A DNA stretch of 64,000 nucleotides from a virus: IMG/VR virus record IMGVR_UViG_3300045988_162372. One strand, written 5' to 3'. Position 1 is the stretch's first letter. The number at the start of each line of letters is the position of its first letter. The notes under the pieces are model-generated. The model made no database searches and was not told where the DNA came from. It saw only the letters and a program-made list of their open reading frames with translations. This document shows positions 1 through 45,067 of the stretch, piece by piece. A program made the position numbers and the translations under genes.

Positions 1-859
1 CCAAATGATGATTTTGCATCATCCCTTGCACATTAAGGTTCTCAAGGCAGATTGTATCGTATTTTCGGATAAGACATGTTGTCAACTTGTGCAGGAAATC
101 CGACCTGCGGTTGGATATCCTTCTGTATTGTTTTGCGGCTTTAATTCTCAACCTTTCCCTTCTTTTTGAATTTTTCTGGGCTTTTGAAAACCTGCGTTGC
201 AGTTTTCTCAAACGGATTTGTCCTTTTTCAAGGAATTTGTTATTTCCGTATTTTGTGCCATCGGACAATATGGCGAAGTCCTTGATGCCTAAGTCAATTC
301 CCACTGCTGTTTCCTCACAAACTTTGGCTTTCGGCTTGCAAGGCTTGTTGTCCTCGACAATGATTACACACCAGTATTCTCCACATTTGTCCTGTGACAC
401 TGTAAGAGTCCCAATCTTGCATTTTGACAAGTCAAATGCCTTGTTAAGGCAAATCTTTGTCCACCCCATCTTTGGAATCCTGACTTTCCATTTGTCAAAG
501 TCAAACCTCACGTTATTGATAAACTTGCAGACGTTTTTGCTATGTTTCTTTGATTTGAATTTTGGAAAACCCTTCTTTGCCTTGAAGAACTGCGTGTAGG
601 CATTGTCAAGATTTCTTAGAGATTGTTGCAAACTTTCGTTTGCTACATCTTTGAGCCATTTGTGTTCTCCATCATTCTTTAACAGTGTCAGTTCCTTTGC
701 AAGTTGGAGATACCCGATGGATTTCTTCTCCTTTGTCCATGCTTCCATCTTTCGGCTTAATCCCCAGTTATATATGAAACGGCAACAACCAAAATGCTGC
801 AACAGCAAACGCTGTTGCCTCATCGTTGGTTTGAGTTTGTATCTGTACGCTCGTTTCAT
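1..859 (-). CDS. tnpB: TnpB-like RNA-guided endonuclease (IS200/IS605-family OrfB). Only the N-terminal 286 codons are present, and the 3' end lies beyond the window start.
   Basis: Hand translation of the minus strand from ATG 859..857 gives MKRAYRYKLKPTMRQQRLLLQHFGCCRFIYNWGLSRKMEAW... The frame stays open for 286 codons to position 2 with no stop. It is absent from the ORF track because no stop codon falls in the window. There is a RuvC-I-like motif AVGIDLGIKDFAILSDG and a RuvC-II-like motif DTICLENLNVQGMMQN. The + strand ORFs 87..599 and 603..962 are low-complexity antisense artefacts. Confidence 0.85.
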   Translation of the reverse strand, partial: MKRAYRYKLKPTMRQQRLLLQHFGCCRFIYNWGLSRKMEAWTKEKKSIGYLQLAKELTLLKNDGEHKWLKDVANESLQQSLRNLDNAYTQFFKAKKGFPKFKSKKHSKNVCKFINNVRFDFDKWKVRIPKMGWTKICLNKAFDLSKCKIGTLTVSQDKCGEYWCVIIVEDNKPCKPKAKVCEETAVGIDLGIKDFAILSDGTKYGNNKFLEKGQIRLRKLQRRFSKAQKNSKRRERLRIKAAKQYRRISNRRSDFLHKLTTCLIRKYDTICLENLNVQGMMQNHHL

Positions 860-906
860 ATCTTTTATCGTTTCTCTTACATTTATAAATATCTGTTACT
901 TTTCAA

Positions 907-940
907 AAATTGATAGAAAACTTTGTTTTCTTATCAATTT
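907..940. terminator. Strong hairpin with a 15-bp stem and one bulge. It could be a bidirectional terminator-like element or an IS left-end hairpin.
   Basis: The sequence is AAATTGATAGAAAAC-TTT-GTTTTCTTATCAATTT. A T-run follows it on both strands (TCATTTTTTT on +, TTTTTG on -). It lies 41 nt after the clpP stop and 48 nt before the tnpB ATG. Confidence 0.45.
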
Positions 941-980
941 TCATTTTTTTATTCCTGGGTAAACTGGTATATTATTACCA

Positions 981-1646
981 TTATTTATTTGTAATAATTT
1001 TATCAATAAATCCATTATCAACAGCTTCTTGCGCTGTCATAATTGTATCTCTATCACACATTCTCTCAATTGTTTCATAATCAAGATTGCTATTATCAGT
1101 AAGAATTTGTGTTAGTTCCTTTTTCAGTATATCAATTTCACGTGCATGTATTTGAATATCCGATGCCTGTGTTCCTGGGGATATACCTGACATTGGTTGA
1201 TGGATCAAGAATCTTGCATGAGGAAGGATAAAACGTTTCCCCTTTGTTCCACTGCTTGCAATTATTGTTGCCATTGATGCCACCATTCCCATAGACACTG
1301 TTGAAACATCTGGTTTGATATAATTCATGCTATCAAGTATGACATAGCCCGAATATATGCTCCCGCCAGGAGATGCTATTTGGATTGTTATGTCAGTATC
1401 ACCTTGTTGCTCAAGCCAGAGAAGTTGTGCCGATATGATATTTGCCACATCACTATTGATTTCTGTGCCAAGAAAAACAATTCTATCCATCATGAGTCGT
1501 GAAAAAATAGATAGGCTTATGAGCGGTGAATTTCTTTCCTCAATAATTGATGGTTCAATATAGTTACAATAACTATCCAACATATTTGAACCAATCCCTC
1601 TGCTTAGAGCAAACTTTTGAAAATCTTTATATTGTTTATTTTCCAT
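981..1646 (-). CDS. clpP: ClpP-family (S14) serine peptidase. It could act as a prohead or regulatory protease.
   Basis: 221 aa. The catalytic-triad contexts match ClpP: GMVASMA (Ser), FLIHQPMSG (His) and MCDRDT (Asp). Collinear similarity extends over the whole length. Confidence 0.85.
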   Translation of the reverse strand: MENKQYKDFQKFALSRGIGSNMLDSYCNYIEPSIIEERNSPLISLSIFSRLMMDRIVFLGTEINSDVANIISAQLLWLEQQGDTDITIQIASPGGSIYSGYVILDSMNYIKPDVSTVSMGMVASMATIIASSGTKGKRFILPHARFLIHQPMSGISPGTQASDIQIHAREIDILKKELTQILTDNSNLDYETIERMCDRDTIMTAQEAVDNGFIDKIITNK

Positions 1647-2367
1647 CGTAAATTCTTTCTTTTGCTATATTATAATAATTTTCATCAATCTCTATCCCCA
1701 CAAAATTCCTATTCGTATTTTGACAAGCAATGCCCGTGCTTCCACTACCCATACAAAAATCCAACACATTTCCATTCTCAGGACAGTAGGATTTAACCAA
1801 GAATTTCATTAATTCCACTGGTTTCTGTGTAGGATGTACTTGGTCTTGTCTTCTCCATTTTTGAGGAAAATCAAGTATTGTTGTGGGGTGTCTTGTTCCT
1901 TTGTTATCCGTTTGAACTCCCTTAATGCCATATTTCAAATTATTCACCTTGTTTGGTGTATATTTCCTTTTATACGGCTCTCCTTTTTGCATTTGTGGCT
2001 CATAATAACTGCCACTATCCCCAAACACTAAAATATTCTCGTGTTTCTTCAAAGGCATATATTTGGCAGTCAATGGTGAGCCACATTTTGACTTCTTCCA
2101 AATAAGTTCGTATCTGAATTTACTGATATTGCTTAAAGCAAGTTCAAACGTATATGTTCCAGAACTAAACAAGACAATATTTCCTTTGGGGACAATAAGT
2201 TGATTCAAGCACTCCCACATCTTATCGAATGGTATCTTTGTATCAAACTTATTATTATGTATCCCATAAGGAGGGTCACAGATGATTGCATTGAATTTAA
2301 TGCCTTCTGTAATTAATTTGTGCATTTCCTCAATACAATCACCTAATATTAACCTTATTTCACTCAT
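1636..2367 (-). CDS. Beta-class DNA methyltransferase, probably N6-adenine (N4-cytosine not excluded)
   Basis: 243 aa. Motif IV (ICDPPYG) precedes motif I (FCMGSGSTGIAC). The gene overlaps the clpP start by 11 nt, and its ATG overlaps the upstream stop as TAATG. Confidence 0.8.
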   Translation of the reverse strand: MSEIRLILGDCIEEMHKLITEGIKFNAIICDPPYGIHNNKFDTKIPFDKMWECLNQLIVPKGNIVLFSSGTYTFELALSNISKFRYELIWKKSKCGSPLTAKYMPLKKHENILVFGDSGSYYEPQMQKGEPYKRKYTPNKVNNLKYGIKGVQTDNKGTRHPTTILDFPQKWRRQDQVHPTQKPVELMKFLVKSYCPENGNVLDFCMGSGSTGIACQNTNRNFVGIEIDENYYNIAKERIYDGK

Positions 2368-2834
2368 TACTTGCTTTTTCTTTTTGCTGCACGTTCCGCT
2401 TTCTGACGTTCTTTCTCTTCTTTTTCTTCCTCTTCAATCTGAATGATAGCATGTACACCTGCCTCTGCTGCGTTGAGTAATTCTTCACCCCATTTTGCAC
2501 GTCCATCAATAGATACCTCAATGTGAGGACAACCAATTGTAATCTTATCTTTTTCTGTGTCGAAATTGATTTGGTTAAATGCATCTCTAATAAGAATTTC
2601 CTTCTGTCTGTCTTCAAGCATATCAAACGCACGTTCATAAATGAAGATATTCACAGTGTCGGGTTTATTTGTTTTCCATTTAGTTACAGCATTGTCAAGT
2701 TGTACCTTAATAACTTGTTTGTCCTTAACCTTTCCAATACCCTCAATACGAACATAATTATACAAACCAAGTTCTTCTGAAATTTTCTGAATCAATTCCG
2801 CATTCACTTCCGATAAATTACTAAATTGTGCCAT
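2367..2834 (-). CDS. Hypothetical protein, 155 aa, with a Glu/Lys-rich tail
   Basis: Clean ORF with an ATG start. A consensus promoter lies 40 nt upstream. It is the first gene of the operon ending with clpP. Confidence 0.7.
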   Translation of the reverse strand: MAQFSNLSEVNAELIQKISEELGLYNYVRIEGIGKVKDKQVIKVQLDNAVTKWKTNKPDTVNIFIYERAFDMLEDRQKEILIRDAFNQINFDTEKDKITIGCPHIEVSIDGRAKWGEELLNAAEAGVHAIIQIEEEEKEEKERQKAERAAKRKSK

Positions 2835-2874
2835 AATTCAATCACTTTTTTAATTGTTAAACCTTAATTTTTTG

Positions 2875-2882
2875 CAAATGTA
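2875..2882 (-). promoter_or_regulatory. Bacteroidota-type promoter, -7 box TACATTTG
   Basis: The minus strand reads aagTTTG-19 nt-TACATTTGCAAAA. The box is preceded by GTAG as in the other family members. It is 40 nt upstream of ATG 2834. Confidence 0.7.
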
Positions 2883-2887
2883 CTACT

Positions 2888-2895
2888 TATTTTTG
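2888..2895 (+). promoter_or_regulatory. Possible divergent -7 box TATTTTTG for the + strand gene at 2959
   Basis: It matches TAnnTTTG on the + strand 64 nt upstream of ATG 2959. No correctly spaced -33 TTTG was found. Confidence 0.35.
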
Positions 2896-2958
2896 TAACC
2901 ACAAACTTTCAGTATGATATTTATTTCTAAATAATGATTGTTTAACAAGATTTAATAT

Positions 2959-3858
2959 ATGAAAAGTTTAGCAAGAATGCTTAGAGAACAAGCTGAACGT
3001 GAACAGCGAAAAGCTGAAAAAGAGCGCATTAAGAAAGAAAAGGAAGAAGAAAAAAAGCGTTTGAAACGTATAGAACATAAAAAGAAACTCAAACATAAAC
3101 AAAATCAAAGATACTATAAAAAAGTAAAAGCGAAACGTTTGCAGGAGAGAAAGGAAAAAGGTGATAAGAAAGCCTATCATATGGTTGTGATTATGAAAAA
3201 CTACAAACGTAAAAAGAGGCTTGGTTTTTCATGGTGGATGACTGATGCTTATGACATGTACAATAAAGCTATTGAGGAAAATCAAGCGACAGTTAAATTT
3301 CCCGTTCAAATACATGAGGGAAATGAAAAAAGACAAAAAGATGGTGAACGAAGCATTAATGCAACCTATGAAATAATGATATTACAGAGAACTCCTGAAG
3401 GGCAGCAAATAAACAGTTTTCGAAACAAATCGGGCAAATTCATTCCTAATATTATTATAGATGATGAGAATTACACTATCATTGCAAAACATGAATGGCT
3501 TGTAGAGGAAACTTTCAATGTCTATGGCTATCACCCTGTAAAAGATAGAAAAACTTTTGATTTCGTTCTCAATGAAATGGTATTGAAAGATTGTGAAAGG
3601 GATAATATAAAACGTATATTCTCATTCAATAATAGGGTTTTAATTCAGTATGACAGTGATATTGATATTATAACGTGTAAGACTGCTTCCGACGCAAAAA
3701 GGCTTTATAGTGAGCTTAAAAAAGCTACTGATGGTAACAAATTCCTTATATTTACAGAAGGTATGACAAGCAAGAATATCTCTACTTGGGTATTGAATAA
3801 ATTGGAGGAGAAAACTGGATGGAAACGTTCCTCTTGCAAAAGAATTCACACGTTATAA
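2959..3858 (+). CDS. Hypothetical protein, 299 aa, with an N-terminal 70 aa Lys/Arg/Glu-rich stretch
   Basis: ATG start. It is one of only three convincing + strand genes. A hairpin plus T-run follows it. Confidence 0.75.
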   Translation: MKSLARMLREQAEREQRKAEKERIKKEKEEEKKRLKRIEHKKKLKHKQNQRYYKKVKAKRLQERKEKGDKKAYHMVVIMKNYKRKKRLGFSWWMTDAYDMYNKAIEENQATVKFPVQIHEGNEKRQKDGERSINATYEIMILQRTPEGQQINSFRNKSGKFIPNIIIDDENYTIIAKHEWLVEETFNVYGYHPVKDRKTFDFVLNEMVLKDCERDNIKRIFSFNNRVLIQYDSDIDIITCKTASDAKRLYSELKKATDGNKFLIFTEGMTSKNISTWVLNKLEEKTGWKRSSCKRIHTL

Positions 3859-9549: not shown

Positions 9550-10002
9550 TTAATAATCATAGTTGACACCAAGCCAATCATATCCGAACATTTCTCTCAT
9601 AGTCTTCCTTTTCTTTGGCTCTTTCTTGTCTTTCGTTACAACTGGTTCTTCTTGTTTCTTGGTTTCTTCAACCTTTTTTTCCTCCTCAACAACAGGTTCT
9701 ACTTTTTCTGCCTTTGCTTCTTCGACAGTTTCAATTGGTTCTGCAACTTCTTTTACTGTTTCTTCTTCTTGCTCTACTATTTCTTGTTTTTCTTCTGTCG
9801 GAGTGGTTTCATCAATAATTTCAGTTACCTTGTCTTCTTTGTCAATGACAGGCTCTTCTTTCTGTACTTCCTCCACATCTTCCGTTGAAATGTCTTTCAT
9901 TATATCCATATATTCCTCTTCTATATTCTTTTCAACAGATGTAACAGTTTCATTCTGTTTTGTTGAGGTGGTATTTTTGATTCTTATTCTATTTCTTGTC
10001 AT
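9550..10002 (-). CDS. Highly acidic Glu/Val/Lys-rich protein, 150 aa
   Basis: The core is low-complexity (EEVQKEEPVIDKEDKV...VEEEKKVEETKKQEEP). The C-terminal end is MREMFGYDWLGVNYDY. It lies immediately downstream of the sigma-factor gene. Confidence 0.6.
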   Translation of the reverse strand: MTRNRIRIKNTTSTKQNETVTSVEKNIEEEYMDIMKDISTEDVEEVQKEEPVIDKEDKVTEIIDETTPTEEKQEIVEQEEETVKEVAEPIETVEEAKAEKVEPVVEEEKKVEETKKQEEPVVTKDKKEPKKRKTMREMFGYDWLGVNYDY

Positions 10003-10016
10003 AATATATAATTTTT

Positions 10017-10718
10017 TTACCTTAATTCTTTATATGTTTCAAATTCATCAGACATTAATGCTTCAGTCCTTAATTTAACTAATGCATTGTCTTTTATCTG
10101 TCTTACTCTTTCATTGGTAAGATGTAATTCGTTACTTATTTCTTCCAATGTCTTTTCCTTCCCGTCTTTCAAACCGAAATAATCAATCAATACTTTGATT
10201 TCCCTATTTTTCAAACATTTCATCAAATCTGTGATTGACGCTTTTCTGCTTTGTAAGTCCATTAGTTCATTTTCAAAATTTTCGTTAATGTAATTGGTTT
10301 CATCATATTTTGTATTTGTACAATTTGTGAAAACATAATCATCAATTGCGTTTATTTCCATATTCTTCTGTTGGTATTCCTCTATACATTCTTGGATAGA
10401 ATTTTTCACCCACCATACAGCATACGAAATAAATCTTATATTCTTGTTTCCATCAAATTTTTTAGCGGCTTTCATTAGTCCGACATTTCCTTCTGAAATC
10501 AAGTCTGAAAATGGAACTCCACTTTTTCTGTAAGCCTTAGCGATGTTCACTACGAATTTCAGATTTGATGTAACCAATTTATTCAATGCCTTCTCATCAC
10601 CTTGCTTTATCTTTTCAGCAAGTTCTTTTTCCTCAGCATTTGTCAAATGTTTATATTTCTTTATTTCACTGAAATAACTATCAATTTCTTCAAGTTTCTC
10701 ATATTTCTTTAATTTCAT
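10017..10718 (-). CDS. Sigma-70-family RNA polymerase sigma factor, compact, with regions 2 and 4
   Basis: Region 2 reads LVTSNLKFVVNIAKAYRKSGVPFSDLISEGNVGLMKAAKKFD...RFISYAVWWVKNSIQECI. Region 4.2 has the HTH LEEISNELHLTNERVRQIKDNALVKLR. Confidence 0.8.
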   Translation of the reverse strand: MKLKKYEKLEEIDSYFSEIKKYKHLTNAEEKELAEKIKQGDEKALNKLVTSNLKFVVNIAKAYRKSGVPFSDLISEGNVGLMKAAKKFDGNKNIRFISYAVWWVKNSIQECIEEYQQKNMEINAIDDYVFTNCTNTKYDETNYINENFENELMDLQSRKASITDLMKCLKNREIKVLIDYFGLKDGKEKTLEEISNELHLTNERVRQIKDNALVKLRTEALMSDEFETYKELR

Positions 10719-10755: not shown

Positions 10756-13137
10756 TTACGATAGAATTAATTTGCTAACATTGGTATTCTCATCTTTTGT
10801 AACTGTGATAGTTTGTTCATGCCAATCCCATACTGCTTCAACGTGTGAAACATGTAATATGAACTGGTAATTTGAACACATACGTTTAAACAATTCATGT
10901 AAATTGTCATAATTTGAAATACCAACAGTGCCAATAATTTCATCCATCGTACAGAAATTAGGACGTGAGATACTTGAAATTGAACATAAAGCGGTTCTAA
11001 GTGCAATAGATGCCATTGTTGTCTCGTAGCCAGAAGCACAGATACCTAAATCCATTATCTTACCATCACGTATCATATTCAAGCAAACCTTATTATCTTC
11101 TGATACTAACAACTCTACATCAAAATCGCATAAGCCATTCAATAATCTTTTAATTTCATTATTAATAATAGGCAATGCCTTTCGAAGAACTATTTTAACA
11201 ATACCATCTTTGCCGACCAATTGTTGATAAATCTTCCAGTTTCTTATTATTTTTTCCTCCTCTGAAAGTTTATCAATGAGTTTCTTTCTGTCTTCTATAT
11301 TCTTCGTGTAATTTTTTATCTCATTCTTATATGCTTCTATCTCACGAATTACTTGCTCCTTAGAACGTGTTTCCGTACTTATGTTTACATCAACGTTTCT
11401 GATCTTTATATCAATCTCATTATTCAGCTTAATGTTTTCCTTGTTGGTTTCAATTTCTTCTTTAAGTTTGTTAAACTCAGCAACCTTGGACTTGCATAAT
11501 TCGATATTTGCTTTTAAAGCTGTTAACTGCAACTCTATCTTATGTCTTTGGTTTGTCATTTCCTGCTGTTTTTCCATTTCCTTAATTTCAGCATTCAATG
11601 CATCAATAGTTTTCTTGTTTTCTACTCCCTGCTTGATAAATTCATTTATTTTCTTGTTGTTTTCTTCAATAAATGAATTCTGTTCAGAAACCTCAATAGG
11701 ATGATTACAAGTAGGACAAATTCTCTTTTCAATAAGACTATTTATCCTCTTGTTATCTTCTTTAAGGTGATTGATTTCTACTTTTAATTCCGATTGTTGT
11801 TTCTCATAATTAAGGACTTCTTTGCGTTTTTGGTTATATGTATCAACATCAAATGTAGAGTCCTTTACACTTTTGTAATCTTCCTTCAACTGTTTGAATA
11901 TTGCACGTTTTTTCTCTAACTCAGCAGTATAAGATGTAATGTTATGTTCAACAGTTGAAACATCTTCCTTGATAAGGCTTTCCTTGATTTCCTTTCTCTC
12001 CAACAGAAATTCTGTACGTTGTTTGTTGAGTTTCTCAAGGTTATTGGTGAATGAAATCAACTTTTCTTGTGATTTGGTGATTTCTTTATTGTCACTTTCG
12101 ATACATTTATTGAAATCCTCAATTTCACTGATAAGGGTAGCCTTATTGTATGAATTTGACAAAAGAGTATTGCTTACTTTCCTTTTCCATAAATCTTTCG
12201 CAATTTCTTCTTTCTTCTCCAAAGACATCAATCCGAGCCATCTTGAGAACAGTTTCCCTTTATCACTTTGCCCCATTCTTAACAAATCACCAAGACTGTA
12301 TGCCGTTGCCGAGATCACAAGATTAAAATCCTCTACACTACCAATGCTCTCTCTAATAATATTATTAGTTTGTTGTGTACTTTCAGCTTCACAATTCTCA
12401 ATCAACTCATAAGAACCGTTTATAAGCTTGAAATATTCAACTTTTTGTTTGCATTTACTCTTTGAAGTACGCTTTTTCAGTGCAGGTCTTGTAATGGTGC
12501 GTCTGATAACATAATCCACGCCGTCAATTTCAATTCCTGCTTCTACCATTACTTCTGTTTCTTCTGGTAAGAAAATATTAAATACACTATCCAATGTAGG
12601 TGACTTATCAGCTTTCCCAAACAATGCAAAACGTAGCAAGTCAATTGCGAATGTTGTTTTGCCACACATATTCTCAGGCATACCATTTAACAATACAAGA
12701 CCGTGCAGTTTAGTGAAATCCATATAATTACCTTTTCCATAAGAAAGATAATTATCCCACTTCATATATTTAATTTTATATGATTTGTATTTTGAATAAC
12801 TGTCAAAATCAACATAGGCATTTACCTGTGCATCAATCTTTTTAATATCCTCCATATCAACGTCTTCAATCTGTTTCAATTTCAGATATTCTTCAAAAAG
12901 ATTAATTTGAAATTTTGGATCCTGAATGTCCTTAATAATATTTGACGCAAGGGACATCTTTTCACCATTCTCATCTACTGTAATGGGAATGAAATTGATT
13001 TCCACATTTTTCAATGGTACTCCGTATTTGTCCGCAATTTCATGTCTCAATGCTTCTTTTTTCTTATCATTGTAATCAATCTGAAGCATTCGCAAATCAA
13101 ATATGAGTTTATCTGTCTGTTTTATATTTTCTACCAT
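10756..13137 (-). CDS. SbcC/Rad50/T4 gp46-like recombination ATPase
   Basis: 793 aa. The Walker A context is NGMPENMCGKTTFAIDLLRFALFG. A long coiled coil carries a CxxC zinc hook (RICPTCNHP). The C-terminus has Walker B (FCTMDEIIG) and an H-loop (LHVSH). Confidence 0.75.
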   Translation of the reverse strand: MVENIKQTDKLIFDLRMLQIDYNDKKKEALRHEIADKYGVPLKNVEINFIPITVDENGEKMSLASNIIKDIQDPKFQINLFEEYLKLKQIEDVDMEDIKKIDAQVNAYVDFDSYSKYKSYKIKYMKWDNYLSYGKGNYMDFTKLHGLVLLNGMPENMCGKTTFAIDLLRFALFGKADKSPTLDSVFNIFLPEETEVMVEAGIEIDGVDYVIRRTITRPALKKRTSKSKCKQKVEYFKLINGSYELIENCEAESTQQTNNIIRESIGSVEDFNLVISATAYSLGDLLRMGQSDKGKLFSRWLGLMSLEKKEEIAKDLWKRKVSNTLLSNSYNKATLISEIEDFNKCIESDNKEITKSQEKLISFTNNLEKLNKQRTEFLLERKEIKESLIKEDVSTVEHNITSYTAELEKKRAIFKQLKEDYKSVKDSTFDVDTYNQKRKEVLNYEKQQSELKVEINHLKEDNKRINSLIEKRICPTCNHPIEVSEQNSFIEENNKKINEFIKQGVENKKTIDALNAEIKEMEKQQEMTNQRHKIELQLTALKANIELCKSKVAEFNKLKEEIETNKENIKLNNEIDIKIRNVDVNISTETRSKEQVIREIEAYKNEIKNYTKNIEDRKKLIDKLSEEEKIIRNWKIYQQLVGKDGIVKIVLRKALPIINNEIKRLLNGLCDFDVELLVSEDNKVCLNMIRDGKIMDLGICASGYETTMASIALRTALCSISSISRPNFCTMDEIIGTVGISNYDNLHELFKRMCSNYQFILHVSHVEAVWDWHEQTITVTKDENTNVSKLILS

Positions 13138-38693: not shown

Positions 38694-40841
38694 TTAAATA
38701 TGTTTAACACGATGCTTAAATTCTGACATTTTTCCTTTGTTTATATCCATACTTGCGTTTAGATAACCACAAACACGCCTACAAGCAGACAACTTATTTT
38801 TATCTCTGTTTCCACATTGGGGACAATACCAATTACTTTCCTCGTCTATCTGAAGTTCTCCCTCGTATCCACAAGCTGCACAATAGTCTCCACCAGTTGT
38901 GTTTACTTCTGCATATTGAATTGTATTATACATGTGTGTAATAATTTCAGACAGTGCTTCAAGATTATGATTCATATCAGGAATTTCAACATAGGATACT
39001 GCACCACCTTTACTCATTTTTTGATATTGGCTTTCAAAAGATAGTTTATCAAACGCATTACATTCTTCACATACATTGATATGATAGCTATTTGTAAACC
39101 AATCTTTATCTGTTATACCACAAATTTCACCAAACCTATTTCTTGTTTTTTGTGCAAACTTATATGTGAGGCTTTCAGATGGTGTTCCGTAAAGACTTGC
39201 ACCATTGAGTCCTGGTATATTTCTCCATTCAATAGTTTTCTCTTCAAGATGTTTCATTACTCTTTCTTGAAATTTTGAACCTATTTCACTTGTATTACTT
39301 TCTCCTGTCATTACTTTACACATTTCGTAACAGCCAATATAGCCTAATGATATAGAAGAATAACCGTCATCAAGATACTTGTCAATGATATCATTTTCAC
39401 CAAGTCTTGCAACACTTCCATAACGCCAGTGTATAGGTGAAACATTTGCACTTGCGCCTCTTAATAAATGGTCTTTTATTAACATTGCTTCCTTGCAAAG
39501 TTCAAGACGTTCATCAAGAATGTTCCAAAACTTTTCTTCATCACCATCACTTGATAATGCAACGTCAACAAGATTAATCGTTACAACGCCTCTATTAAAC
39601 CTTCCATACCATTTGTATTTGCCATTTTCATCTTTCCACGGTGAAAGGAATGATCTACATCCCATACATGGAAAAACCTCATTATCAAACTGTTGCCTCA
39701 TTATTTTAGCCGAAATATAATCTGGATTCATACGTTTGGCAGAACATTTAACAGCTAAATCAGTCAAATATCTATATTCACTATCTTTTGGCACATTGTT
39801 TTCATCGAGTACATAGAGTAATTTAGGAAAACTAGGCGTAACATAAACACCATATTCATTTTTCATGCCTAAATATCTTAAATTCAGCATCTCTTCAATT
39901 ATCATTGCTGTTTCTTTAACATATTCAGGTTCTTCGTTAAGATACATAAAAATACTTACGAAAGGTGTCTGCCCATTATTACTGCTAAATGTGTTTTCCT
40001 GAAACTGTATAGTTTGGACACCATCTTTTATTTCCTGTTTAAGGAGTTTCATTGCTTGTTGTTTTATTTGCTCATCTGTTGCATTAATACCTATTTCAGC
40101 AAAATTATTTTTTAAGTGTTCTATATACTTGTTATAAGACACTCTGACAAAAGGTGCTAAATGAGATACTGAAAACGTTTGCCCGCCATATTGACCATTT
40201 GCAACTTGTAGACTAATTTGAGTAGCAACAGTGCAAGCCGTTTTGAATGATTTAGGTGTTTCTATCATTTTGCCGTTAATTACAGTCCCATTTTCAAACA
40301 TGTCTTTTAAATTTATTAACTGACAATTGAACATTGGCTGTATCATATAATCCATGTCATGAATATGAATTATACCTTCATTATGAGCGTTTAATATATG
40401 TGTAGGAAGTAATTTTCTTGCAGCATAACTTATTGATTCTGCACCAGCAATCAAATCTCTTTGCGTGGAACTCATTCTTGCATCTTTGTTAGCGTTTTCT
40501 GAAATAGCTTTTTCATTAGAACCATCAATGATGCCAATAATATCCTTATCTATAATGCCGTCTTGCTTTTGAAAATGTTTTGTTGTTTTATATCTTTCAT
40601 AAGCATTAGCTGTTAAATCCTGCCCATAATCAAACAATTTTTTAAGGACAAATTTATCAACATCTTTAGAATATACTACATCTTTTTTACCAAATCTTTC
40701 TTCTGCTTCCTCTGCTATTATATTTGCAATTCTGGGGTAGTATACCCCACTGCCAGTTTTCATTGCTTTTGAAACTGACTTTCTTATCTTGGAACTATCG
40801 AATGTTCCCTCTCTTCCATCACTACTTATATACTTTGTCAT
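38694..40841 (-). CDS. nrdD: Anaerobic (class III) ribonucleoside-triphosphate reductase
   Basis: 715 aa. The C-terminal glycyl-radical motif RRVCGYL is present. A zinc site CAACGY...CPQCGN is present, and there is ATP-cone-like N-terminal context. Confidence 0.9.
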   Translation of the reverse strand: MTKYISSDGREGTFDSSKIRKSVSKAMKTGSGVYYPRIANIIAEEAEERFGKKDVVYSKDVDKFVLKKLFDYGQDLTANAYERYKTTKHFQKQDGIIDKDIIGIIDGSNEKAISENANKDARMSSTQRDLIAGAESISYAARKLLPTHILNAHNEGIIHIHDMDYMIQPMFNCQLINLKDMFENGTVINGKMIETPKSFKTACTVATQISLQVANGQYGGQTFSVSHLAPFVRVSYNKYIEHLKNNFAEIGINATDEQIKQQAMKLLKQEIKDGVQTIQFQENTFSSNNGQTPFVSIFMYLNEEPEYVKETAMIIEEMLNLRYLGMKNEYGVYVTPSFPKLLYVLDENNVPKDSEYRYLTDLAVKCSAKRMNPDYISAKIMRQQFDNEVFPCMGCRSFLSPWKDENGKYKWYGRFNRGVVTINLVDVALSSDGDEEKFWNILDERLELCKEAMLIKDHLLRGASANVSPIHWRYGSVARLGENDIIDKYLDDGYSSISLGYIGCYEMCKVMTGESNTSEIGSKFQERVMKHLEEKTIEWRNIPGLNGASLYGTPSESLTYKFAQKTRNRFGEICGITDKDWFTNSYHINVCEECNAFDKLSFESQYQKMSKGGAVSYVEIPDMNHNLEALSEIITHMYNTIQYAEVNTTGGDYCAACGYEGELQIDEESNWYCPQCGNRDKNKLSACRRVCGYLNASMDINKGKMSEFKHRVKHI

Positions 40842-44940: not shown

Positions 44941-44980
44941 GATACTTTTACTATAAATTAAACAATTTTACATTAATTTG

Positions 44981-45067
44981 TAGTCAAGGTGGGAGTCGAA
45001 CCCACACAAGTATTTCTACTTCCAGATCCTAAGTCTGGTGCGTCTCAACCAATTGCGCCACTTGACC
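44981..45067 (-). tRNA. tRNA-Leu, anticodon UAG, type II with a long variable arm, no encoded CCA
   Basis: Hand folding gave an acceptor stem GGTCAAG/CTTGACT (G1-U72 pair) with discriminator A. The D arm is GCGCAATTGGTTGAGACGC. The anticodon stem is CCAGA/TCTGG with loop CTTAGGA. The variable arm is AAGTA-gaaa-TACTT. The T arm is GTGGG-TTCGACT-CCCAC. Confidence 0.85.

What the first reader, a model, noticed from the sequence alone, without database searches (positions are those of the whole stretch)
1..980. Hidden tnpB gene missing from the ORF track, in a G+C-richer patch of a phage genome
The ORF track shows only two junk-like + strand ORFs over 87-962. The minus strand, however, is open from ATG 859 to the window edge (286 codons). 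It translates to a textbook TnpB N-terminus (MKRAYRYKLKPT..QQ..L...FG..RFIYNW). It also has a RuvC-I motif (GIDLGIKDFAILSDG) and a RuvC-II motif (CLENLNVQGM). Hand-counted lines here are about 40% G+C, against about 23-32% in the rest of the window. This suggests recent acquisition. TnpB proteins are programmable omega-RNA-guided nucleases. The guide RNA and right end would lie just beyond position 1. No tnpA is visible between tnpB and clpP. A TnpB carried by an apparently lytic Bacteroidota phage next to a clpP-methyltransferase operon could be a plain IS. It could also be a domesticated nuclease used in phage competition or homing.
Basis: partly seen in the sequence, partly recalled or inferred. 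Interest (0 to 1): 0.75.

Follow-up and report, generated by a model that had tools for sequence, protein, structure and literature searches.

The report
TnpB nuclease riding an IS1595-type transposon
The hidden gene is a real, intact RNA-guided nuclease (TnpB), but it is carried by a small inverted-repeat transposon of the IS1595 family that hops among large gut phages, not by a classical IS200/IS605 element; this kind of arrangement is already known, so the find is solid and only moderately new.

Summary
Window 859..1 (minus strand) is the first 286 codons of a tnpB gene, cut by the contig end. Near-identical contigs give the whole gene: 411 aa, intact D-E-D RuvC triad and zinc ribbon, G+C 40.6% against 32.1% for the window.

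The interpretation needs one correction: this is not an IS200/IS605-type element. The 1373-bp unit is bounded by about 24-nt terminal inverted repeats that start 5'-GG. Relatives are flanked by exact 8-bp target duplications. The same ends enclose MITEs, other cargo genes and, in several viral contigs, an IS1595-family DDE transposase. It is therefore a non-autonomous IS1595-type transposon whose only gene is tnpB.

A structured RNA supported by covariation (omega-RNA-like) overlaps the 3' end of tnpB and ends in the right repeat. The guide would therefore be read from the flank.

The closest relatives of this phage lack the element. Other phages carry 87-88% identical copies at other sites, with dN/dS about 0.09. 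This copy sits at the clpP stop codon and abuts codon ~181 of a vWA-like gene, so about 560 bp next to the right end have been lost. A natural unoccupied allele that matches the predicted guide was found. Homing or allele exclusion is plausible but untested.

TnpB inside DDE transposons and TnpB in phages are both already published.

The parts
1..859 (-). 5' part of tnpB: codons 1-286 of 411. Holds the HTH_OrfB_IS605 domain, RuvC-I (D189) and RuvC-II (E273). The remaining 125 codons, the zinc ribbon, RuvC-III, the omega-like RNA and the right inverted repeat lie beyond the window edge (L001 11647-12040).
   Evidence: Translation; Pfam and NCBIfam; full gene in L001 and L002; conserved D189/E273/D355 and C326/C329/C345/C348 in 21 relatives; ISDra2 TnpB structures matched at E 1e-75.
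860..955 (-). Non-coding interior of the left end (5' leader of tnpB). It contains a block conserved among relatives (...TTTT..N..GATATTTATAnATAGAAA-like, window about 872-894), possibly the element's own promoter. That role is an inference.
   Evidence: Upstream sequences of 25 relatives; alignment A2. The sigma-70 consensus scan found nothing convincing here.
910..937 (-). Hairpin TTGATAAGAAAAC-AAA-GTTTTCTATCAA followed by TTTTT on the tnpB strand. Possibly a terminator that insulates tnpB from clpP read-through. Function not shown.
   Evidence: Sequence; inverted repeat I9; picked up as a hairpin by a spurious Rfam match.
956..979 (-). Left terminal inverted repeat, GGTAATAATATACCAGTTTACCCA. 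It matches the right end (L001 12017-12040) at 20 of 24 positions.
   Evidence: The family consensus GGNAAYNATATACNTGTTG is found at both ends of 44 elements.
980..987 (-). Target-site octamer TAAATAAT next to the left repeat. It overlaps the clpP stop codon (981-983). The matching octamer after the right end is TTAATACT (6 of 8), so the duplication is not intact in this copy.
   Evidence: The same preferred target, CAAA|TAAATAAT, is duplicated exactly in L040 and L041. Native clpP ends in relatives are shown.

Best explanation
Window 1-979 is the left two-thirds of a 1373-bp non-autonomous transposon of the IS1595 (Merlin-like, DDE) family. Its only gene is an intact tnpB.

Shown:
- The unit runs from a left inverted repeat (window 979-956) to a right inverted repeat 393 nt beyond the window edge.
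- Sibling elements with the same ends are flanked by exact 8-bp target duplications. They carry nothing (MITEs), unrelated cargo, or an IS1595-type transposase (Zn ribbon plus DDE domain).
- The tnpB protein is under strong purifying selection.
- A structured RNA supported by covariation overlaps the last ~35 codons of tnpB and ends in the right repeat.
- The closest relatives of this phage lack the element.
- Near relatives of the gene sit at other sites in other large phages.
- In this copy the left end lies on the clpP stop codon. The right end abuts codon ~181 of a vWA-like gene, so about 560 bp next to the right end are missing.

Inferred:
- An IS1595 transposase supplied in trans moves the element by cut-and-paste.
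- The tnpB transcript is processed into an omega RNA. Its scaffold ends at the right repeat, and its guide is the adjacent flank (the 8-bp duplication plus downstream bases; here TTAATACTGCAACTAC...).
- TnpB with this RNA cuts alleles that lack the element, either after excision or in a co-infecting related phage. Recombinational repair from the occupied copy then restores or spreads the element and its neighbours. This would be a homing or marker-exclusion effect.
- The flush deletion arose by intramolecular transposition of the right end, or by recombination between two copies.
For: Gene:
- Pfam and NCBIfam hits.
- 411-aa ORF in L001 and L002.
- Invariant D189/E273/D355 and four zinc-ribbon cysteines in 21 relatives.
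- E 1e-75 to ISDra2 TnpB structures.
- dN/dS 0.08-0.10 at dS 0.84 between the three phage sites.

Ends:
- Three independent insertions align only between L001 10668 and about 12045.
- 21 tnpB loci have inverted 24-mers at both ends, matching at 15-24 of 24 positions.
- The longest inverted repeat in the L001 interval joins its two ends.

Target duplication:
- 29 of 44 elements have an exact 8/8 flanking repeat, against 3 of 220 shifted controls. This includes the non-trivial octamer TATGCTAA.

Family:
- The same ends bound elements of 165-3087 bp.
- In 8 of the 29 TIR-bounded elements in the census of viral contigs, tblastn found a homologue of the IS1595-type transposase. For two of these proteins (328 and 331 aa) Pfam gives DDE_Tnp_IS1595 at 1e-37 and 8e-45, plus Zn_ribbon_IS1595.

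RNA:
- 19 base pairs in 4 helices are 89.6% paired, against 32-41% when partners are slid.
- 15 pairs show compensatory changes, and 0 of 500 shuffles reach the observed score.
- The block is conserved whatever the reading frame.
- dS falls to 0.16-0.23 across it.

Mobility:
- Absent between clpP and the DUF5856 gene in 8 IMG/VR relatives and in relatives with 97% and 87% identical ClpP.
- Present at other sites.
- The site occupied in relative L060 maps, by flanking homology, to window ~9800-10017, where the window carries no element.

Right junction and target:
- L312 matches L001 from base 12041 onward at 96.9%. Upstream it continues the vWA-like frame instead of the repeat.

Precedent:
- DDE-associated TnpBs with inverted terminal repeats, and solo TnpBs with the same ends that are presumably mobilised in trans, are described in PMC10691335.
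Against: - No IS1595 transposase, second repeat or second tnpB occurs in the 64-kb window.
- No transposase-bearing element with this copy's own repeat subtype (GGTAATRATATAC...ACCCA) was found. The partner is therefore inferred from more distant siblings, whose repeats match at roughly 16 of 22 positions by eye.
- This copy and its two closest relatives do not have a perfect duplication (6/8, 6/8 and 7/8). Recent transposition of this particular copy is therefore not shown.
- The TAM is unknown. The bases 5' of the duplication show only a weak A-rich preference.
- No Rfam family matches the RNA.
- No expression, cleavage or transposition data exist.
- Some relatives (L030, L060) lack a recognisable left repeat.
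Confidence: 0.78

Rival explanations
1. Classical tnpB-only IS200/IS605 element (IS1341 type). It would be moved on single-stranded DNA by a Y1 HUH TnpA supplied in trans, inserting 3' of a TAM without duplication. TnpB would restore the excised copy.
For: - The protein is an ordinary ISDra2-like TnpB.
- Y1_Tnp+TnpB and Resolvase+TnpB elements do occur in related phages (L016; L183).
- The left end holds a hairpin.
Against: - The ends are inverted copies of each other over about 24 nt.
- 8-bp flanking duplications are present in 29 of 44 elements against 3 of 220 controls.
- The same ends enclose DDE transposases, MITEs and unrelated cargo.
- IS200/IS605 is defined by the absence of both inverted repeats and duplications (PMC13565253).
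Confidence: 0.05
2. Immobile, domesticated phage nuclease. The gene would now be a fixed phage gene used against competing phages or the host, and its transposon ends would be relics.
For: - Strong purifying selection.
- Imperfect duplication and a flush deletion in this copy.
- No transposase in the window.
- The exact protein is found on 5 contigs of up to 356 kb.
- A related allele matching the predicted guide exists.
Against: - Absent from the closest relatives.
- 87-88% identical copies lie at other sites, bounded by the same repeats.
- Both repeats are retained.
- The composition is still foreign.
- Being mobile and being useful to the phage are not mutually exclusive.
Confidence: 0.12
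3. Decaying remnant or pseudogene of a dead insertion, with no present function.
For: - The source contig stops inside the gene.
- The duplication is imperfect, and the repeats match at 20 of 24 positions.
Against: - The contig end is an assembly break; L001 and L002 read through.
- The ORF is intact with all catalytic and zinc-binding residues.
- dN/dS is 0.09.
- The RNA helices are kept by compensatory changes.
Confidence: 0.03

Closest known systems
ISDra2 TnpB with its omega (reRNA) guide, IS200/IS605 family (PDB 8EXA, 8BF8, 8H1J)
   Same: Same domain order (HTH, RuvC split by a C4 zinc ribbon) and the same D-E-D triad. E 1e-75 over residues 3-367. A structured RNA overlaps the 3' end of the gene and stops at the element's right end.
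   Different: The element's ends are inverted repeats with 8-bp duplications, not asymmetric hairpin ends next to a TAM. There is no Y1 TnpA. The RNA's last ~21 nt are the transposase-binding repeat itself. The TAM is unknown.
DDE-transposase-associated TnpB branches (Altae-Tran et al., PNAS 2023, PMC10691335)
   Same: TnpB sits inside transposons with inverted terminal repeats. The 3' end of TnpB lies within 250 bp of the transposon end. Solo TnpBs have the same ends as transposase-bearing copies, implying mobilisation in trans.
   Different: The paper's main text names only IS630 (branch DDE-6) and does not mention IS1595. Its supplement was not available, so I cannot say whether this clade is one of its six branches. 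Here the carriers are large gut phages.
IS1595 family / eukaryotic Merlin transposons
   Same: Repeats beginning 5'-GG, 8-bp target duplications, and a transposase with an N-terminal zinc ribbon and a DDE_Tnp_IS1595 domain in sibling elements (PMC8101967). From memory, not checked here: Siguier et al. 2009 describe passenger genes in this family and give 'ggnnatTAT' ends for the ISNwi1 group, which would fit GGGAATTAT.
   Different: This copy has no transposase. Its cargo is an RNA-guided nuclease.
Fanzor (eukaryotic TnpB homologues) in DNA transposons and giant viruses (Bao and Jurka 2013, PMC3627910)
   Same: A TnpB-type nuclease carried as a passenger in inverted-repeat, duplication-making DDE transposons, including copies in large dsDNA viruses.
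   Different: Here the protein is a prokaryotic, ISDra2-like TnpB, and the carrier is a bacteriophage.
Free-standing homing endonucleases of phages (for example T4 SegF); 'transposon non-restorative homing' (PMC13565253)
   Same: The proposed effect is the same: cut the allele of a co-infecting relative that lacks the element, then copy the element and its flanks during repair.
   Different: Recognition would be by a guide RNA read from the flank, not by the protein. This is untested here.

Membership tests
TnpB (RNA-guided nuclease, OrfB_IS605) | HTH_OrfB_IS605, OrfB_IS605 (RuvC) and zinc-ribbon TNB domains above curated cut-offs | tested here: met
   Pfam bits against cut-offs: 63.2/21, 90.5/30.5 and 88.1/26.3 on the 411-aa protein. 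NCBIfam guided_TnpB 229.8/100 on the fragment.
TnpB (RNA-guided nuclease, OrfB_IS605) | Intact RuvC D-E-D catalytic triad and C4 zinc ribbon | tested here: met
   D189, E273, D355 and C326/C329/C345/C348 are invariant in 21 aligned relatives. The protein aligns full-length to ISDra2 TnpB.
TnpB (RNA-guided nuclease, OrfB_IS605) | Structured omega RNA that overlaps the 3' end of the gene and ends at the element's end | tested here: met
   4 helices and 19 pairs, 89.6% paired against 32-41% in slid controls, with 15 compensated pairs. No Rfam match. Expression was not tested.
TnpB (RNA-guided nuclease, OrfB_IS605) | TAM-dependent, guide-directed DNA cleavage | not testable with these tools
   Only a candidate target (L312) and the 5 nt before it (TATGA) were identified.
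IS200/IS605 (including the tnpB-only IS1341 group) | No terminal inverted repeats; asymmetric subterminal hairpins | tested here: not met
   The ends are inverted copies, 20 of 24 in this copy and up to 24 of 24 in relatives.
IS200/IS605 (including the tnpB-only IS1341 group) | No target-site duplication; insertion 3' of a 4-5-nt TAM | tested here: not met
   Exact 8-bp duplications in 29 of 44 elements against 3 of 220 controls.
IS200/IS605 (including the tnpB-only IS1341 group) | Y1 HUH transposase TnpA in autonomous members with the same ends | tested here: not met
   Elements with these ends carry DDE_Tnp_IS1595 proteins instead. Y1_Tnp was seen only in a different element (L016).
IS1595 family (DDE; Merlin-related) | Transposase with Zn_ribbon_IS1595 and DDE_Tnp_IS1595 domains | tested here: inconclusive
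   Absent from this copy and from the window. Present inside the same repeats in siblings L211 and L267 (Pfam), with tblastn homologues in further elements such as L268, L222, L279, L282 and L311. No partner with this copy's exact repeat subtype was found.
IS1595 family (DDE; Merlin-related) | Terminal inverted repeats beginning 5'-GG | tested here: met
   GGTAATAATATACC... at window 979-956.
IS1595 family (DDE; Merlin-related) | 8-bp target-site duplication | tested here: inconclusive
   Met across the family. In this copy the octamers match at 6 of 8 (TAAATAAT / TTAATACT), because the DNA next to the right end was deleted.

The most novel reading that the evidence does not exclude
In large gut phages, a cut-and-paste IS1595-type transposon has captured TnpB and fused the 3' end of its omega RNA to the transposase-binding repeat. 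Every insertion would then automatically arm the nuclease against the unoccupied allele (the 8-bp duplication plus its flank). The element would behave as an RNA-guided homing or marker-exclusion cassette between co-infecting phages. Here it would target the vWA-like gene allele seen in L312. Sibling elements with mini CRISPR-like arrays inside the same repeats (L035, L038, L044, L045) would be steps from this state towards a transposon-borne type V system.
Probability: 0.3. Interest if true: 0.65.

Novelty: new member of a known kind. Interest (0 to 1): 0.4.

Why it matters
The result corrects an easy mis-annotation. A tnpB without a tnpA is usually filed under IS200/IS605, but here the ends show that a DDE transposase of another family must move it.

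It also gives a compact natural system, 1.37 kb with defined ends. The system comes with sibling transposases, MITEs and a real unoccupied target allele. With these, one can test what an RNA-guided nuclease does for a cut-and-paste transposon, and whether phages use such cassettes for homing or mutual exclusion.

The general phenomena are already published: TnpB in DDE transposons, and TnpB common in phages (401 phage records matched). The advance is therefore incremental.

Tried and rejected
- Megablast of window 1-3000 against 50,697 phage records found only a 42-bp chance-like hit. No close cultured relative exists there.
- An Rfam scan of the element gave only sub-threshold hits. The L20_leader hit is the downstream terminator hairpin, and the MIR8001 hit is the left-end hairpin.
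- A scan of 185,579 species-representative genomes found no relative above 67% identity, so no donor or host copy was identified.
- The IS1595 gene next to a 41% identical tnpB in Methylocaldum (L129) is a separate 1047-bp IS with its own repeats, not a composite.
- TAM inference from the bases 5' of the duplications gave only a weak A-rich signal.
- The predicted guide has no match in the window.
- A search for this copy's repeat subtype in IMG/VR found only one more tnpB copy and no transposase.
- I looked for an IS1595 transposase listed on a contig of the same length as the phage contigs (228,737 or 356,106 bp). None appeared among the best 120 of more than 6000 relatives.
- My first reading was that the vWA remnant starts right after the tnpB stop. 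I corrected this once the right repeat was mapped: the flank starts at L001 12041.
- The sigma-70 promoter scan of the left end was uninformative.
Full report
**1. The observation**

Reading window 859..2 on the minus strand gives 286 sense codons. They begin MKRAYRYKLKPTMRQQRLLLQHFGCCRFIYNW and contain GIDLGIKDFAILSDG and CLENLNVQGM. The mechanical ORF list shows only two + strand ORFs over this stretch, 87..599 and 603..962. By its own description it omits ORFs that run off the end of the source, so that is why the gene looked hidden.

The fragment already scores well above curated cut-offs. Pfam gives HTH_OrfB_IS605 1.3e-17 and OrfB_IS605 5.7e-26. NCBIfam gives guided_TnpB 229.8 bits against a cut-off of 100.

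The G+C claim also holds. Bases 1-859 are 40.6% G+C. 859-bp windows elsewhere average 32.1 +/- 2.2% and never exceed 38.0%. GC3 is 48% against 19-25% for neighbouring phage genes.

The neighbours are as described: clpP at 981-1646 and an N6/N4 DNA methyltransferase at 1636-2367, both on the minus strand.

**2. Extending the gene**

An exact look-up of ClpP found the source contig. It is ENA ERZ28596321 scaffold_19, 228,737 bp, identical to the window, and it ends inside tnpB. Two near-identical contigs continue: L001 (39 kb) and L002.

In L001 the gene is 10788-12023 and encodes 411 aa. It has CSCCG...CPKCG and HDRDVNAAINI, and Pfam adds Cas12f1-like_TNB.

In an alignment with 20 relatives of 65-91% identity, D189, E273, D355 and four zinc-ribbon cysteines are invariant. 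The protein matches the solved ISDra2 TnpB structures at E 1e-75 over residues 3-367.

The truncation in the window is therefore an assembly break, not decay. Window and L001 coordinates convert as window = 11647 - L001.

**3. The surroundings are a large phage**

Eight IMG/VR viral contigs of 100-282 kb keep the gene order p155, methyltransferase, ClpP, DUF5856 gene, Dam methyltransferase, TROVE.

Window ORFs match phage families for a baseplate wedge protein, an SbcC-like nuclease, NrdD and a DnaB-like helicase.

The exact TnpB protein occurs on 5 contigs, the longest 356 kb. The host was not determined.

**4. The element is an insertion, and its ends can be read**

None of the eight IMG/VR relatives has tnpB between clpP and the DUF5856 gene. 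Relatives whose ClpP is 97% and 87% identical do not have it either. In those, clpP is followed after 20 bp by a terminator hairpin and a small reverse-strand gene.

The closest TnpB proteins are 85-91% identical. Two of them, at 87-88%, were traced to two other sites in phage-like contigs.

DNA alignments of the three independent sites are similar only between L001 10668 (GGTAATAATATACC...) and about 12045.

A metagenome scan for the DNA just right of the element found L312. It matches L001 at 96.9% from base 12041 onward. Upstream it carries different sequence that continues a vWA-like reading frame. This fixes the right boundary at L001 12040.

The unit is 1373 bp: 120 bp of leader, then tnpB, then 17 bp.

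**5. The ends are not IS200/IS605 ends**

The first 24 nt are GGTAATAATATACCAGTTTACCCA. The reverse complement of the last 24 nt is GGTAATGATATACGTGTTCACCCA. They match at 20 of 24 positions, and this is the longest inverted repeat in the interval.

Twenty-one related tnpB loci show the same arrangement, matching at 15-24 of 24. Many are flanked by an exact 8-bp direct repeat, for example TAATATAT, TATGCTAA, TAAATAAT, TAAAAGAA and TAAATTAT.

The consensus GGNAAYNATATACNTGTTG hits more than 120 viral contigs. Inverted pairs of it bound elements of 165 to 3087 bp.

Over 44 elements, 29 have an exact 8/8 flanking repeat. Only 3 of 220 shifted-register controls do.

The cargo varies:
- nothing (MITEs of 165-516 bp);
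- proteins that share an N-terminal RLTESDLxxIIKESV motif and have no Pfam match;
- tnpB alone;
- tnpB plus a GIY-YIG-like ORF;
- in eight elements of the viral-contig census, a homologue of a transposase-like protein. The three read in full are 328-339 aa. Pfam assigns two of them (328 and 331 aa) to Zn_ribbon_IS1595 plus DDE_Tnp_IS1595, at E 1e-37 and 8e-45.

[quoted passage not shown] IS200/IS605 is defined by having neither inverted repeats nor duplications (PMC13565253).

The tnpB unit is therefore a non-autonomous IS1595-type transposon with tnpB as its cargo. Neither a transposase nor a second repeat lies in the window.

**6. The guide-RNA region**

From the RuvC-III motif to the right repeat, 20-22 relatives share a nucleotide block that is conserved whichever frame is open.

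RNAalifold, extended by a manual structure, gives four helices with 19 pairs:
- 89.6% of cells are paired, against 32-41% when 3' partners are slid by 1-3 columns;
- 15 pairs show compensatory changes;
- none of 500 shuffles reaches the observed covariation score.

Between the three phage sites, dN/dS is 0.08-0.10 at dS 0.84 over codons 1-370. dS drops to 0.16-0.23 over codons 371-400. That is the expected footprint of an RNA gene overlapping the coding sequence.

The last ~21 nt of the block are the right inverted repeat. Any guide must therefore start with the 8-bp duplication and continue into the flank. For this copy the predicted guide is TTAATACTGCAACTACATTA.

No Rfam family matches the block.

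**7. History of this copy**

The left repeat abuts the octamer TAAATAAT, which contains the clpP stop codon. The same sequence, CAAA|TAAATAAT, is an exactly duplicated target in L040 and L041. A similar native clpP end is seen in L005.

The right repeat abuts TTAATACT, which lies at about codon 181 of a vWA-like gene. That gene is complete (221 aa) after clpP in L005 and partly present in L312.

The two octamers match at only 6 of 8 positions. About 560 bp between the clpP stop and codon 181 are missing, flush with the right repeat.

The simplest readings are inferences, not shown: intramolecular transposition of the right end into a nearby target, or recombination between two copies.

**8. 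How it probably works**

Shown:
- an intact nuclease gene under purifying selection;
- a conserved structured RNA that ends at the right repeat;
- transposon ends shared with DDE-transposase-bearing siblings;
- presence/absence polymorphism among related phages;
- a natural unoccupied allele (L312) identical to the predicted guide over at least 25 nt and preceded by ...GATATGA.

Inferred:
- movement by an IS1595 transposase supplied in trans;
- processing of the tnpB transcript into an omega RNA;
- cutting of unoccupied alleles, followed by recombinational copying of the element (restorative or non-restorative homing, as discussed in PMC13565253).

The TAM could not be derived. The bases 5' of the duplications are only weakly A-rich.

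**9. Comparison with what is known**

TnpB is frequent in phages: tblastn found it in 401 phage records (see also PMC12607003).

Altae-Tran et al. 2023 (PMC10691335) describe six TnpB branches associated with DDE transposases. All six have inverted terminal repeats. They also describe solo TnpBs with the same ends, presumably mobilised in trans. That paper's main text names IS630 and not IS1595, and its supplement was not available.

Fanzor shows the same passenger arrangement in eukaryotic transposons and giant viruses.

The present case is thus a new, well-delimited member of a known kind. What is particular to it is the IS1595 carrier, the abundance in large gut phages, and the fusion of the RNA's 3' end with the transposase-binding repeat.

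**10. Verdict**

TnpB, foreign origin, mobility and the position of the RNA and right end are all right. The IS family is wrong, and domestication is not favoured.
- Interest is 0.4.
- The homing/exclusion reading is the most novel one left open. I give it a probability of about 0.3.

Noticed in passing
L035 1299-1400; L038 1333-1438; L044 1223-1452; L045 1245-1472 (IMG/VR viral contigs): TnpB relatives at 62-64% identity have 2-4 copies of a ~36-nt repeat (GTTGTAATTCCATTTAATTTATGGTTGACTAACACC) directly upstream, at a 65-66-nt period. These look like mini CRISPR arrays. In L035 and L038 the 3' omega-like RNA has lost helices P3 and P4. In L038 the array and the gene lie inside the IS1595-type repeats, with an exact 8-bp duplication (TATGCTAA). 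This may be a TnpB-to-type-V transition on a transposon.
   Followed up: partly
L214 7458-7826; L224 699-1418 (minus strand); L270; L211 (IMG/VR viral contigs): Other cargo of the same repeat family: proteins of 122-307 aa that share an N-terminal motif, (I/V)RLTESDLxxI(I/V)KESV. The two tested have no Pfam match. Function unknown.
   Followed up: partly
L227 9438-11553: A 2116-bp element with the same repeats and an exact 8-bp duplication. It carries tnpB (376 aa) together with a 251-aa ORF whose N-terminus looks like a GIY-YIG nuclease (GFIYKYTYPNGKVYIGQT). Pfam gave no hit.
   Followed up: partly
L183 1-1773; L016 10777-11239: Related phages also carry other TnpB elements: a Resolvase (IS607-type) gene plus a 421-aa TnpB in L183, and a Y1_Tnp gene plus a 421-aa TnpB in L016. 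Several transposon families deliver TnpB to this phage group.
   Followed up: no
window ~9800-10017, versus L060: A relative of this phage (IMG/VR 3300028048_000064) has a 70% identical tnpB inserted between the homologues of window genes 9550-10002 and 10017-10718. That site is unoccupied in the window. The L060 copy has no recognisable left repeat.
   Followed up: partly
L001 12041-12190 (beyond the window's left edge); L005 6701-7366: A 221-aa gene follows clpP in relative L005; its N-terminus (VFVVDKSGSM...) looks vWA-like by eye and was not tested against a family library. It is reduced to its last ~45 codons in this phage, is absent from the relatives with 97% identical ClpP, and carries an in-frame stop in L312. 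It is a variable or decaying accessory gene.
   Followed up: partly
window 44980-45067 (minus strand): A single tRNA-Leu gene (anticodon TAG) is the only tRNA in the 64 kb.
   Followed up: no
window 10017-10718 and 38694-40841 (minus strand): The phage encodes a 233-aa protein with sigma-70 region 2 and region 4 domains, and an NrdD-type anaerobic ribonucleotide reductase. The latter fits an anaerobic gut host.
   Followed up: no
window 1 (contig end): The 228,737-bp source contig stops inside tnpB. The 90%-identity cluster of this protein has 194 members in the collection. The break is probably an assembly collapse at a repeated or polymorphic element.
   Followed up: no
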